64,000 nt of DNA. Source: the human T2T-CHM13v2.0 reference genome, Homo sapiens. The notes under the pieces are model-generated. The model saw nothing but the letters and a program-made list of their open reading frames with translations. It was not told where the DNA came from and ran no database searches. Numbering within the stretch: position 1 is the first letter of the stretch; every line of letters starts with the position of its first letter. Of this stretch, positions 18,801 to 21,800 are shown piece after piece. The position numbers and the translations under genes were made by a program. The stretch lies in NCBI RefSeq assembly GCF_009914755.1, contig NC_060942.1. One strand, 5' to 3'.

Positions 18801-21800
18801 ACATGCGGGGCCAGCAGGAGCGGGAGGGCCCGGGTCGGGACCACGCACCCAGCATTCCTACCTCACCCTTCGGTGACTCCCTGGAGTCCTCCACTGAGCT
18901 CCGCCGCCACCTGCAGTTTGTAGAAGAGGAAGCGGAGTTGCTCCGGAGGTCCATCTCCGAGATCGAAGACCACAACCGGCAACTGACCCACGAGCTCAGC
19001 AAGTTTAAGTTTGAGCCTCCCCGGGAGCCGGGCTGGCTAGGAGAGGGTGCAAGTCCTGGTGCCGGGGGTGGGGCCCCCCTGCAGGAGGAGCTGAAGTCAG
19101 CCAGGCTGCAGATCAGCGAGCTCAGCGGCAAGGTGCTCAAACTGCAGCACGAGAACCACGCGCTGCTGTCCAACATCCAGCGCTGCGACCTGGCAGCCCA
19201 CCTGGGGCTGCGTGCCCCCAGTCCCCGGGACAGCGATGCCGAGAGTGATGCGGGCAAGAAGGAGAGTGATGGGGAGGAGAGCCGCCTGCCCCAGCCCAAG
19301 CGGGAAGGGCCTGTTGGCGGGGAGAGTGACTCGGAGGAGATGTTTGAGAAGACGTCGGGCTTCGGGAGCGGGAAGCCATCGGAGGCCAGCGAGCCATGCC
19401 CCACGGAGCTCCTGAAGGCCCGGGAGGACTCTGAGTACCTAGTGACCCTAAAACACGAGGCCCAGCGGCTAGAGCGGACGGTGGAGCGCCTCATCACGGA
19501 CACCGACAGCTTCCTCCATGATGCGGGGCTGCGGGGTGGTGCGCCCTTACCGGGGCCTGGCCTCCAGGGCGAAGAGGAGCGGGGTGAGGGGGACCAGCAG
19601 GAGCCCCAGCTGCTGGGGACCATCAACGCCAAGATGAAGGCTTTCAAGAAAGAGCTGCAGGCCTTCCTGGAGCAGGTGAACCGCATTGGGGATGGCCTAT
19701 CCCCCTTGCCCCACCTCACAGAGTCCTCTAGCTTCCTCTCCACTGTGACTTCCGTGTCCCGGGACTCCCCCATCGGGAACCTGGGGAAGGAGCTGGGCCC
19801 AGACTTGCAGGTAAGGGGGCTCGTGGCTTCGCCTCCCTGCTCCGCCTTGCTCTTCCTCCTTCTCGCTGGCATTGCTGCACTCGGGCTCACGCTGCTCACG
19901 GCTGCTTGGTTATGATTTCAAACCTGCATTGTACTAAAGCCTCCGGGGCAACCGGATCCTCTCTCTTGGTTGGGCTCCGTTTTTTTTTGTTTTTTTTTTT
20001 TTTAAGTTCTCTTGTATTGCCTTGTTTCTTTTTCCTTTTTCCTGTCTTATTTTTAACTGCGCCGCGGCTCATGGTTTAGAGGCCCTCCCAGACACGAGGC
20101 TGAGCCCAGTGGAAGCGATAGGGCTCGACGCATGCCGGCCTTGCTCCTCTCTTGGTATCTCAACCAACCAGCCACCCGCTGAAGAAGCCGTGAGGAGGCT
20201 AAGACAAACGCATGTCACAGTCAGGATAATTAGCAGACTCGCTAACGAGCACGTCCCTTCCTGGGTGTGTTTCAAGGGACACAGTGCAGTCCAAGGCCCT
20301 AGGCAGCCCAGGCCCCCACTCCCACTGGAGGATCAGCCAAAGCGGGCGAGGAGCACGGTGCTGAGAAGGATGGTTTTGGTGGAAAAGCTCTGCTGGCTCC
20401 TGCCGCCCTGCCGCCGCTGGGGAGGGCGCGGAGGGTCTCCGAGGACTGCTGTCCTAGCCTCGCCTGGGTGCATGGCCCAGCTGCCGCCCTGGACTGTGGC
20501 TTTGGCTGCTCGACCCACAAGTAAGGAAGGAAGAGCCTCGTTTTCCGTTTCCTTCACGGGTAGCGTGCTTGCGGTTGAGTTCTGGATTCACGCATCGCCA
20601 TCGCATGTGCCCCGTAACCAGTGTTTTGCACCCCCACTTTCTCTTTTTGCTTTTCAGATGTGTCCACCCGCCCCTTTGCTCATCCTCATCTTGGGTCTGT
20701 TTTCTTCACTTTCTTACACCACTGTCTTTAAGCCTGTGTTTCTGTTCGTGCTGTTCTTTGGTCGTTTTCTCAGTCGTCTCCCTTGTCCATTTTTGTTTTC
20801 TTTATCCCCCCTCCCTGCCTCCACCCTTGTCCTTTGTTTGTTTGTTTTTTTGTTTAAAATTTTAAAGAACAACAACAACAAATTCCTCCCGTGCACCTAA
20901 CAGTCCAGACTGAAAGAGCAGCTGGAGTGGCAGCTCGGGCCGGCCCGAGGGGACGAGCGGGAGAGCCTGCGCCTCCGAGCCGCGCGGGAGCTGCACCGCC
21001 GCGCAGACGGGGACACCGGGAGCCACGGGCTGGGAGGCCAGACCTGCTTCAGCCTGGAGGTCAGCGTGGGCAAGCAATCCCCCCCCCCCCCCACCGCCCT
21101 CCCCCTCCTTTTTCTGTGTGGCTGGCTGTGTGACGTTTTCTGTCCCGGACGAGGCCCTGAGGGAACATGGCAGGAGGAGGTGGAACTAGGTGGAACTCAC
21201 TTGACAGCAAACCCATTTTGTGGCACTGGGACAGGCAGGTGTGCGCAGGTGCCTGCGGTGAACTGCTGTGCTCGTCAGACAGAGGGACAGCTCACTGTAG
21301 GCACTGTCCACCTCCTGTTTCCGCAGACCGGGAGCACCTGGAAGTAGGCTGATTGGTGAGTGCGCAGTGGCTTCTTGTCCAGTCGCAGAGAAAGAAGGGA
21401 TGAAAACCCAGCACGGGCTTCCCTGCTCTGGAGGAAACTCTCCTTAGAGTTCCCCTTTTCAGCTCTTTGTTGCCTGTGTCTCGTGTGACCATCCCACGGT
21501 CTCGAGTGACACTGCTGGCAGGTTGGTAGAATCAGGGAGGCTCGCTCCTGACCTGTGGGCACCCCTAGCAGTGTCTGTCACCACAGTAACCCGGTATACA
21601 CAAGGCTTCAGCCACCACAGAGACCATGGTTGGAAGTGTTGTCAGCAGCCTGGAAGAGTGAAAGCTCTTAGATGCGGGTCACCCGACCCGGGACAGAAAG
21701 AGGGGATCCCCGAGGAGCTGTTGAATGAGGAAGCACCTTTAAAAGTCCAAATGCTGTGTCAGTGTAAAGTATGAATAATAGAGAATGCAATGTCTTGCCA

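What the first reader, a model, noticed from the sequence alone, without database searches (positions are those of the whole stretch)
20658..20903. Hidden SOGA3-like transmembrane exon inside the MTCL1 intron
Seen: a textbook acceptor (ctttctctttttgcttttcag) lies 246 nt upstream of the much weaker canonical acceptor at 20903. It is phase 0 like the donor at 19810 and reads [42 protein letters not shown]... to TAA at 20898-20900. Recall, unverified: the paralog SOGA3/MTCL3 is a single-pass membrane protein ending roughly ...[34 protein letters not shown], close to residues 1-34 here. Inference: this is the paralogous membrane-anchor exon. It is either still used to make a membrane-tethered N-terminal MTCL1, or decaying (extra prolines, lost stop, 46-aa extension).
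Basis: partly seen in the sequence, partly recalled or inferred. Interest (0 to 1): 0.85.

Follow-up and report, generated by a model that had tools for sequence, protein, structure and literature searches.

The report
Relic membrane-anchor exon inside MTCL1
An intron of the human microtubule gene MTCL1 holds a worn copy of the membrane-anchor exon used by its sister gene on chromosome 6, and the same intron also starts with a second, better kept membrane-anchor tail, so MTCL1 may make a short membrane-bound form that nobody has described.

Summary
At 20637-20657 there is a top-ranked acceptor-like site. It is followed in phase 0 by an 80-codon frame ending at TAA 20898-20900.

The first 36 codons are a true paralog of the C-terminal hydrophobic exon of the chr6 family member (SOGA3 by recall):
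- The two are each other's only non-self hit in the whole genome.
- 26 of 36 residues are identical.
- Codon positions 1 and 2 are 83% and 75% identical, against 36% at position 3.
- Both lie at the same place and phase after the large SOGA coiled-coil exon.

So it was a coding exon for most of vertebrate history.

In human MTCL1 it looks worn:
- The stop is lost and 44 extra codons run through simple repeat.
- Five replacements give Pro or Gly, and hydropathy is weaker.
- There is no poly(A) signal or donor, and the stop lies about 160 nt before the next junction.
- It is absent from 34 RefSeq transcripts and from a 5.8-billion protein set.

Its use could not be tested.

Unexpectedly, the same intron starts with a strongly hydrophobic 34-codon read-through tail (19811-19915). 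All 22 protein clusters retrieved keep it in frame; one is a spliced 962-residue form. That tail is the better anchor candidate.

The parts
18497..19810 (+). Large MTCL1 coding exon (438 codons, Pfam SOGA domain). Its phase-0 donor cag|gtaagg at 19810 would feed either anchor.
   Evidence: 438 codons, no stop; PF11365 E 2.2e-70; paralogs on chr6 at 57% and chr20 at 56% identity.
19811..19915 (+). Read-through tail: 34 codons [34 protein letters not shown], then TGA 19913-19915. It is translated only if the 19810 donor is not used. It ends in a 22-residue hydrophobic stretch at the very C-terminus.
   Evidence: translation; all 22 retrieved protein clusters carry it and stop at the same place (21 end in AAW[L/F], one in AARL); lengths are 34/35/36/32 aa, so every indel is in frame; identity to human 74-100%, against 71-98% for the exon; Kyte-Doolittle peak 2.40-2.68. 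P0096, 962 aa, spliced upstream and read through here.
19933..19938 (+). ACTAAA, the only poly(A)-signal-like hexamer (a weak variant) in 19811-20657. It lies 18 nt after the read-through stop and is followed by a T run at 19980-20003.
   Evidence: hexamer scan; T run. Its use is not shown.
20637..20657 (+). Acceptor-like site ctttctctttttgcttttcag of the relic exon.
   Evidence: 15/16 pyrimidines, C at -3, 36 nt AG-free; one of 4 among 4751 AG sites meeting all three criteria.
20658..20765 (+). Homologous core of the relic exon: 36 codons, [36 protein letters not shown]. It is paralogous to the chr6 exon [36 protein letters not shown].
20766..20900 (+). 44-codon extension past the place of the chr6 stop, ending in TAA 20898-20900. 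It holds a second hydrophobic stretch (residues about 45-66) and runs through low-complexity DNA.
   Evidence: no significant similarity to the chr6 3' flank; (TTTG)n at 20833-20855; hub table (masked 20780-20887).
20904..21059 (+). Annotated next coding exon. If the 20658 acceptor were used, this exon and its donor at 21059 would follow the TAA by about 160 nt.
   Evidence: Hub table; (no consensus donor and no AATAAA/ATTAAA between 20658 and 21059).
47956..48210 (+). Exon with the SOGA1/2-like coiled-coil domain (PF14818). It is the marker used to show that the chr6 locus keeps a C-terminal-half exon downstream of its anchor exon.
   Evidence: E 8.9e-20; exactly 3 genome hits, on chr18, on chr6 128642768-128642908 (-) and on chr20..

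Best explanation
Window 20658-20765 is the MTCL1 copy of an old alternative exon. That exon ended the protein with a hydrophobic membrane anchor.

**Origin.** The exon already existed in the gene that gave rise to MTCL1 and to the chr6 family member (SOGA3 by recall). It sat directly after the large SOGA coiled-coil exon, in phase 0. On chr6 it is still a short exon that stops right after the hydrophobic stretch. The C-terminal-half coiled-coil exon lies 19 kb further down the same strand.

**State in human MTCL1.** The exon was kept as protein-coding sequence for most of the time since the duplication. It is now most likely a skipped relic:
- Its stop is gone.
- It runs on for 44 codons through repeat-like DNA.
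- Its hydrophobic stretch is weakened by Pro, Gly and Ala.
- It has no donor or poly(A) signal of its own.

**If the acceptor is used.** The acceptor is still strong. If the spliceosome uses it, the message would encode the N-terminal half of MTCL1 with a poor hydrophobic tail. It would carry a stop about 160 nt before the next exon junction, which is the usual trigger of nonsense-mediated decay.

**The better anchor candidate.** A membrane-bound short MTCL1, if it exists, is more likely made by not splicing at 19810. The first 34 intron codons give a strongly hydrophobic tail at the extreme C-terminus.

**Shown:** homology, position, phase, the coding pattern of divergence, the sequence defects, and in-frame retention of the read-through tail.
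**Inferred:** skipping, decay, NMD, and membrane insertion.
For: **Homology and position**
- Reciprocal and unique whole-genome hits (E 0.003; 2 hits only, E 2.4e-6).
- 26/36 identities; 0 of 200000 shuffles reach this.
- The chr6 exon starts about 2 kb downstream of the paralogous coiled-coil exon on the same strand. It has a cag|ATG acceptor and candidate phase-0 donors.

**Long coding history**
- Identity 30, 27 and 13 of 36 at codon positions 1, 2 and 3; 16 synonymous codon differences; no indel in 36 codons.

**Ancestral layout**
- PF14818 hits exactly 3 genome sites. One is chr6 128642768-128642908 (-), downstream of the anchor exon.

**Wear in human**
- No stop at the chr6 stop position; 44 further codons.
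- The flank after the stop is not similar to chr6 (50/500 shuffles reach its score).
- 7 of the 10 residue differences give Gly/Ala/Arg/Pro in MTCL1 (5 of them Pro or Gly).
- Hydropathy peak 1.82 against 2.48.
- No AATAAA/ATTAAA until 22197 and no consensus donor inside the exon.

**No sign of use**
- Absent from the 34 RefSeq transcripts (hub table).
- No protein scored E <= 1 among 484 candidates of 141-2000 aa. That set does hold vertebrate NCBI, UniRef and assembled-read proteins.

**Read-through tail**
-.
Against: **Features that look intact**
- The acceptor is fully intact and among the best in the window.
- The frame is open, the first Met is kept, and there is no frameshift. A long-dead exon should have lost some of this.
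- The weaker hydrophobic stretch still passes the usual Kyte-Doolittle threshold of 1.6.

**The NMD argument is not specific**
- By my recall, not checked here, the chr6 gene also carries its stop in an exon followed by a donor-like site. One such site, cag|gtaagaaa, lies 204 nt after the stop. An 'NMD-like' layout therefore does not prevent use in the paralog.

**Absence from protein sets is weak evidence**
- Gene-model pipelines drop such forms. The read-through tail, which looks constrained, is missing from RefSeq too.
- Clustering at 90% could hide short isoforms.
- The 44-140 aa length range was not searched.

**Not tested at all**
- Splice-junction reads, and conservation of 20658-20900 in other vertebrates.

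**Bias in the tail count**
- The 22-of-22 result for the read-through tail is biased. Only sequences that keep a similar in-frame tail could be retrieved.
Confidence: 0.6

Rival explanations
1. The exon is still a working alternative last coding exon. In some tissue the 19810 donor is joined to 20658. This gives a stable short MTCL1 (N-terminal microtubule- and CLASP-binding half) held on a membrane by one or two hydrophobic segments.
For: - Intact top-ranked acceptor.
- Open 80-codon frame.
- Hydropathy peaks of 1.82 (residues 6-24) and 2.09 (residues 51-69), both above 1.6.
- The paralogous exon on chr6 has an intact short frame that stops right after the hydrophobic stretch.
- SOGA3 was enriched in pull-downs with the wild-type CLASP1 C-terminal domain and is named there as a paralog of known CLASP interactors (passages of PMC10443533). 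An anchored N-terminal half would therefore have a plausible job.
Against: - Not in 34 RefSeq transcripts (hub table).
- No matching protein.
- Stop about 160 nt before the 21059 junction, and no poly(A) signal.
- The tail is no longer at the extreme C-terminus.
- Pro/Gly replacements.
- The extension lies in repeat-like DNA.
Confidence: 0.17
2. The old exon has been re-used as a switch. Use of the strong 20657 acceptor in place of 20903 puts a premature stop into the message. Splicing factors can then lower MTCL1 output through nonsense-mediated decay.
For: - A strong acceptor is kept 246 nt upstream of an average one.
- There is an in-frame TAA just before the canonical exon, about 160 nt before the next junction.
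- Degraded products would explain the absence from annotation.
Against: - A switch needs only the acceptor and any stop. It does not explain why 36 codons kept a coding-type pattern of divergence.
- No expression data.
- No evidence of regulation.
Confidence: 0.15
3. The resemblance is chance: a pyrimidine-rich tract before an acceptor that happens to translate as Phe/Leu.
For: - BLAST with composition correction gives only E 0.021 for a 12-residue core in 70 kb.
- The region is T-rich.
- The extension is low-complexity.
Against: - Reciprocal unique genome hits.
- 0 of 200000 shuffles reach 26/36 identities.
- The conserved core LFSSLSYTT is not Phe/Leu filler.
- The partner lies within about 2 kb of the paralogous exon on the right strand, in a 3.1-Gb genome.
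- The frame-specific divergence pattern.
Confidence: 0.02
4. The similarity comes from a recent copy or gene conversion from the chr6 gene, or from constraint on the DNA (promoter or enhancer of the alternative first exon at 21086) rather than on a protein.
For: An alternative first exon starts at 21086 and ends in ctag|gtaagt at 24697 (hub table). Regulatory DNA is therefore nearby.
Against: - Third codon positions are at 36% identity, close to saturation, while positions 1 and 2 are at 83% and 75%. Neither a recent copy nor DNA-level constraint gives that pattern.
- Flanks are not clearly similar: upstream 23/500 and downstream 50/500 shuffles reach the score.
Confidence: 0.03

Closest known systems
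C-terminal hydrophobic exon of the chr6 MTCL/SOGA family member (SOGA3 / MTCL3). The name, and its database label as a single-pass membrane protein, are recalled and not from a call.
   Same: - 26 of 36 residues are identical, including the LFSSLSYTT core and the Lys that follows.
- Both have a cag|ATG acceptor.
- Both are in phase 0.
- Both are the first exon after the SOGA-domain exon.
   Different: - The chr6 exon stops after 36 codons. The MTCL1 copy has lost that stop and adds 44 codons.
- The chr6 stretch is more hydrophobic (2.48 against 1.82).
- The MTCL1 copy is not in any RefSeq transcript.
- chr20 (SOGA1 by recall) shows no such exon in the 20 kb after its coiled-coil exon. The best tblastn hit is E 0.009, with a gap and a stop, at a non-collinear place.
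Tail-anchored coiled-coil proteins of the Golgi (giantin, golgin-84, CASP). This is an analogy from established knowledge and was not tested here.
   Same: - A long coiled-coil followed by one hydrophobic segment at the C-terminus.
[quoted passage not shown]
   Different: - No sequence relation was looked for or shown.
- Known full-length MTCL1/2 are cytosolic and reach the Golgi through partners, not through a membrane span.
Alternative splice sites that insert a premature stop (unproductive splicing coupled to nonsense-mediated decay)
   Same: An upstream acceptor adds sequence with an in-frame stop more than 50-55 nt before the next junction.
   Different: Here the added sequence is an old coding exon with a paralog. 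Neither use nor regulation is shown.
Alternative C-termini made by reading through a donor into the intron (intron-retained or intronically polyadenylated short isoforms)
   Same: The 19811-19915 tail follows the exon in frame. It appears in one spliced 962-residue protein from assembled reads.
   Different: - Such tails are usually unconserved. This one keeps its frame, its stop and its hydrophobicity in all 22 retrieved clusters.
- Only a weak ACTAAA follows it.

Membership tests
SOGA3-type C-terminal anchor exon of the MTCL/SOGA family | Sequence homology to the chr6 hydrophobic exon | tested here: met
   reciprocal, unique genome hits; 26/36 identities, 0 of 200000 shuffles reach it. Caveat: composition-corrected BLAST gives only E 0.021.
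SOGA3-type C-terminal anchor exon of the MTCL/SOGA family | Same place in the gene: next exon after the SOGA-domain exon, same strand, phase 0 | tested here: met
   The real chr6 splice junction could not be checked; only phase-0 GT sites were found.
SOGA3-type C-terminal anchor exon of the MTCL/SOGA family | Evolved as protein-coding sequence | tested here: met
   identity 30/27/13 of 36 at codon positions 1/2/3, Fisher p 1.6e-5, 16 synonymous differences, no indel. This speaks for the past, not for today.
SOGA3-type C-terminal anchor exon of the MTCL/SOGA family | Stop codon directly after the hydrophobic stretch | tested here: not met
   TTT stands where chr6 has TAA, and the frame goes on for 44 codons.
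SOGA3-type C-terminal anchor exon of the MTCL/SOGA family | Included in mature mRNA | not testable with these tools
   No RNA data. Absent from 34 RefSeq transcripts (hub table). No protein found.
Tail-anchored membrane protein (relic exon product) | One sufficiently hydrophobic segment within roughly the last 30-40 residues (criterion recalled) | tested here: inconclusive
   The first segment peaks at 1.82 and ends 46 residues before the C-terminus. A second segment peaks at 2.09. No dedicated membrane-topology predictor was available.
Tail-anchored membrane protein (read-through tail 19811-19912) | One hydrophobic segment of about 20 residues at the extreme C-terminus | tested here: met
   [23 protein letters not shown] is the end of the protein. 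The Kyte-Doolittle peak is 2.45 in human and 2.40-2.68 in the 17 others checked. Five of the 15 distinct tails have Glu or Gln inside the segment. Insertion itself is untested.
NMD-coupled alternative acceptor | Stop more than 50-55 nt upstream of a downstream exon junction | tested here: met
   TAA at 20898-20900, next donor at 21059, no donor or poly(A) signal between them. Use of the acceptor, and decay, were not tested.

The most novel reading that the evidence does not exclude
The MTCL/SOGA genes were built from the start as two-in-one genes. One part is an N-terminal CLASP-binding coiled-coil half that can be ended by a membrane anchor, which gives a golgin-like tethered form. The other is a microtubule-binding C-terminal half, added when the anchor is skipped.

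On chr6 the anchor exon became fixed and the two halves fell apart into two genes. MTCL1 keeps both options and has two anchors in one intron. The old SOGA3-type exon at 20658 is fading. A mammal-wide read-through tail at 19811-19915 is in use. It would give a membrane-bound short MTCL1 at the Golgi or ER that current models of Golgi microtubule organisation leave out.
Probability: 0.25. Interest if true: 0.8.

Novelty: new member of a known kind. Interest (0 to 1): 0.6.

Why it matters
MTCL1 and MTCL2 are studied as soluble proteins that tie microtubules to the Golgi through partners.

- **A possible membrane-bound form.** A form of MTCL1 anchored directly in a membrane would be a new player in Golgi and axon-initial-segment microtubule organisation. 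It might explain the smaller bands of about 80 kDa reported for the family (passages of 10.1101/2021.09.07.459224).
- **Gene history.** The relic exon ties the chr6 gene to MTCL1 exon by exon. It suggests that the chr6 gene and the gene downstream of it are the two halves of one ancestral gene.
- **Annotation.** Paralog-guided searches of introns can uncover old alternative exons that annotation pipelines omit.
- **If the relic is dead.** It is still a dated example of exon death beside a possible replacement.

Tried and rejected
**Cross-species test of the relic exon: not achieved**
- The search for homologous proteins with the 80-aa peptide ('longer', 141-2000 aa) gave none at E <= 1 among 484 candidates.
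- The all-representatives HMMER search gave 1 hit, a tandem-repeat protein matched in 10 weak stretches. It is an artefact.
- The protein atlas gave no usable hit for the 320-aa frame.
- The search for related loci with the 438-aa exon found no relative in genome contigs (404 pattern matches, none confirmed) or in viral contigs (12, none confirmed).

**Fossil cDNA idea: uninformative**
- I looked for retrocopies that would show which exon followed 19810.
- The chr10 fragment covers only window 19575-19760. The chr13 fragment covers only 60435-61214. Neither spans the junction.

**Anchor exon in chr20: not found**
- tblastn over 20 kb downstream of the chr20 coiled-coil exon gave a best E of 0.009 (MTCL1 query) and 0.075 (chr6 query). 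The controls scored between 1e-11 and 1e-12.
- The best chr20 hit has a gap and a stop, and it lies beyond the next conserved exon.

**Other ideas rejected**
- Homology of the 44-codon extension with the chr6 3' flank was not significant.
- Homology of the last big MTCL1 exon with chr6 was not found.
- The canonical exon 20904-21059 has no paralog hit.
- There is no paralog of the read-through tail, or of the 240 codons upstream of the relic.
- Pfam finds nothing in the 80-aa peptide.

**Literature: nothing on a membrane form of MTCL1 or on this exon**
- The searches were: SOGA3 + transmembrane (29 papers, listing only); MTCL1 + isoform + transmembrane (36, listing); MTCL2 + SOGA (8); tail-anchored with the gene aliases (28); KIAA0408 + SOGA3 (6); the motif FSSLSYTT (0); SOGA + adiponectin + 'internal signal peptide' (1, unrelated).
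- I read passages of 10.1101/2021.09.07.459224, PMC10443533 and PMC5546597.
- Supplements were not opened.
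Full report
**What is there**

The sequence is as described. The tract ctttctctttttgcttttcag ends at 20657. ATG follows at 20658, and the frame runs for 80 codons ([80 protein letters not shown]) to TAA at 20898-20900. That is one codon before the annotated acceptor at 20903. The upstream exon 18497-19810 is 438 whole codons, so donor and candidate acceptor are both in phase 0.

The acceptor is unusual. It has 15 of 16 pyrimidines at -20..-5, C at -3, and 36 nt without AG. 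Only 15 of 4751 AG sites in the window reach 15/16, and 4 meet all three criteria. The 11 acceptors of the selected transcript score 10-15, and the canonical 20904 acceptor scores 12. The canonical site is average rather than poor.

**Is the resemblance to the paralog real?**

Yes.
- The 80-aa peptide was searched against the whole genome in six frames and gave 8 matches at E <= 10. These were itself, chr6 128662169-128662312 (-) at E 0.003 and 62% identity, and six others at E 0.97-9.5 and 28-41% identity.
- The chr6 frame reads ...cccag|ATG..., giving [36 protein letters not shown] and then a stop. That this locus is SOGA3 rests on recall plus the facts below.
- The reverse search with the 36-aa chr6 peptide found 2 places in the genome: itself and window 20664-20759 (E 2.4e-6, 78% identity).
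- Ungapped, 26 of 36 residues are identical. None of 200000 shuffles of the MTCL1 residues exceeded 15.
- One result goes the other way. With BLAST's composition-based statistics only the core [11 protein letters not shown] survives, at E 0.021 in a 70-kb subject. The statistics of a hydrophobic peptide depend on the method.

The position settles it. The 438-aa coiled-coil exon (Pfam SOGA) has paralogs at chr6 128664277-128665395 (-) and at chr20 38539879-38540610 (-). There is also a short 83%-identical fragment on chr10. The chr6 anchor exon starts at 128662318, about 2 kb downstream on the same strand. Candidate phase-0 donors lie at the end of the chr6 coiled-coil exon.

**Was it a coding exon?**

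Over the 36 aligned codons, identity is 30, 27 and 13 of 36 at positions 1, 2 and 3. Sixteen identical residues use different codons, and there is no indel (Fisher test, positions 1+2 against 3, p 1.6e-5).

Third positions are near saturation. This fits an old duplication. The MTCL2 paper states that invertebrates lack the family (passage).

Neither a recent copy nor DNA-level constraint gives this pattern. Homology stops at the exon:
- The 100 nt upstream reach the observed score in 23 of 500 shuffles.
- The sequence after the chr6 stop does so in 50 of 500.

My rough inference, from the 15 of 72 differences at positions 1+2 and recalled mammalian neutral rates, is as follows. The MTCL1 copy cannot have drifted freely for more than the order of 100-250 million years. 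It was therefore under protein-level selection for most of its history.

**Ancestral layout**

The SOGA1/2-like coiled-coil domain (PF14818) sits in MTCL1 exon 47956-48210. It hits exactly three places in the genome (tblastn E 7.7e-13):
- that MTCL1 exon;
- chr20;
- chr6 128642768-128642908 (-), 19 kb downstream of the chr6 anchor exon.

So chr6 keeps the order N-terminal half, anchor-and-stop exon, C-terminal-half exon. By recall the downstream part is annotated as a separate gene (KIAA0408); I could not check this.

chr20 shows no anchor exon in the 20 kb after its coiled-coil exon.

**State of the human MTCL1 copy**

Signs of wear:
- The chr6 stop position reads TTT, and 44 more codons follow. 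They overlap the masked stretch 20780-20887 (hub table) and a (TTTG)n run.
- 7 of the 10 residue differences give Gly/Ala/Arg/Pro in MTCL1, and 5 of them are Pro or Gly. This is the drift expected of weakly constrained sequence in GC-rich DNA.
- The hydropathy peak is 1.82 against 2.48. A recalled and approximate insertion scale gives +1.8 against -2.7.
- There is no AATAAA/ATTAAA until 22197 and no consensus donor inside 20658-20903. A message using this acceptor would run on through exon 20904-21059. Its stop would sit about 160 nt before the junction at 21059, which is the usual condition for nonsense-mediated decay.
- None of the 34 RefSeq transcripts has the exon (hub table).
- No protein matched at E <= 1. 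That set holds many vertebrate MTCL1 isoform models (1959 proteins at E <= 1e-10, of which the best 120 are listed).

Signs of life:
- The acceptor is intact.
- The frame is open.
- The Met and the core are kept.

I could not test use or cross-species conservation.

**A second anchor in the same intron**

Among the 120 listed relatives of the big exon, one (P0096, 962 aa, SOGA domain only) ends ...[44 protein letters not shown]. It is spliced upstream but reads through the donor.

The human intron gives [34 protein letters not shown] and then TGA at 19913-19915.

A search with the last 15 exon codons plus this tail returned 22 clusters at E <= 1.
- All 22 carry the tail and stop at the same place. 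21 end in AAW[L/F] and one in AARL.
- There are 15 distinct tails.
- Lengths are 34 (17 clusters), 35 (3), 36 (1) and 32 (1), so every indel is in frame.
- In 17 sequences checked, tail identity to human is 74-100%, against 71-98% for the last 82-200 exon residues.
- The hydropathy peak is 2.40-2.68 in all.

Caveats:
- Only tails that stay similar and in frame can be retrieved.
- Most of these proteins look like genomic open frames (exon plus read-through), not transcripts.
- Five of the 15 distinct tails have Glu or Gln within the stretch.
- Only a weak ACTAAA follows.

The tail has no paralog in the genome. The chr20 gene read through its donor also ends hydrophobically (VRCLMHRSYYLFFSFVLFCFS). 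The chr6 gene does not.

**Verdict**

The finding is real as an observation and right about homology. The best reading, with confidence about 0.6, is an old anchor exon that is now a skipped or NMD-bound relic in human MTCL1. It sits beside a better kept read-through tail that could give a tail-anchored short MTCL1.

Continued productive use (about 0.17) and a role as a splicing switch (about 0.15) remain open. Chance is about 0.02.

The searched literature does not mention either element (passages read).

Noticed in passing
window 19811-19915: Reading through the 19810 donor gives a 34-residue tail with a 22-residue hydrophobic end, then TGA. All 22 protein clusters retrieved keep it in frame with the same stop. 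One, P0096 (962 aa), is spliced upstream. The tail is not in the RefSeq exon list for this window.
   Followed up: yes
window 19938-20900: The intron holds a 320-codon stop-free frame, the same frame as the relic exon. None of 1000 dinucleotide-preserving shuffles of the 1093-nt intron reach it (mean 140, maximum 317). The 240 codons upstream of the relic have no relative in the genome, and the protein atlas gave no usable hit for the whole 320-aa frame. Unexplained.
   Followed up: partly
L024 (chr6 128642768-128642908, - strand) and L002/L015: The chr6 paralog keeps a PF14818 coiled-coil exon 19 kb downstream of its anchor-and-stop exon on the same strand. The chr6 gene and its downstream neighbour therefore look like the two halves of an MTCL1-like ancestor. 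A donor-like cag|gtaagaaa lies 204 nt after the chr6 stop.
   Followed up: partly
L011 (chr20 38538379-38542110, - strand): The chr20 paralog's coiled-coil exon ends ...DLGSDFQ|gtaaggtg. Read through, it gives VRCLMHRSYYLFFSFVLFCFS and then a stop, which is also a hydrophobic end. This could relate to the roughly 80-kDa forms reported for SOGA1/MTCL2.
   Followed up: no
L017/L019/L020 (chr13 about 70148347-70149120) and L012 (chr10 72595874-72596065): There are two MTCL1-derived fragments elsewhere in the genome. The chr13 fragment is 93% identical to window 60435-61214 over 780 nt and ends at the exon end, like a 5'-truncated retrocopy. The chr10 fragment is 93% identical to window 19575-19760 over 186 nt, with a TAG in the frame.
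   Followed up: partly
window 21086-24697: This 3.6-kb exon of other RefSeq transcripts starts inside a C run, 26 nt after exon 20904-21059. It ends in ctag|gtaagt, so it is an alternative first exon. An internal promoter therefore sits right behind the two anchor elements.
   Followed up: no
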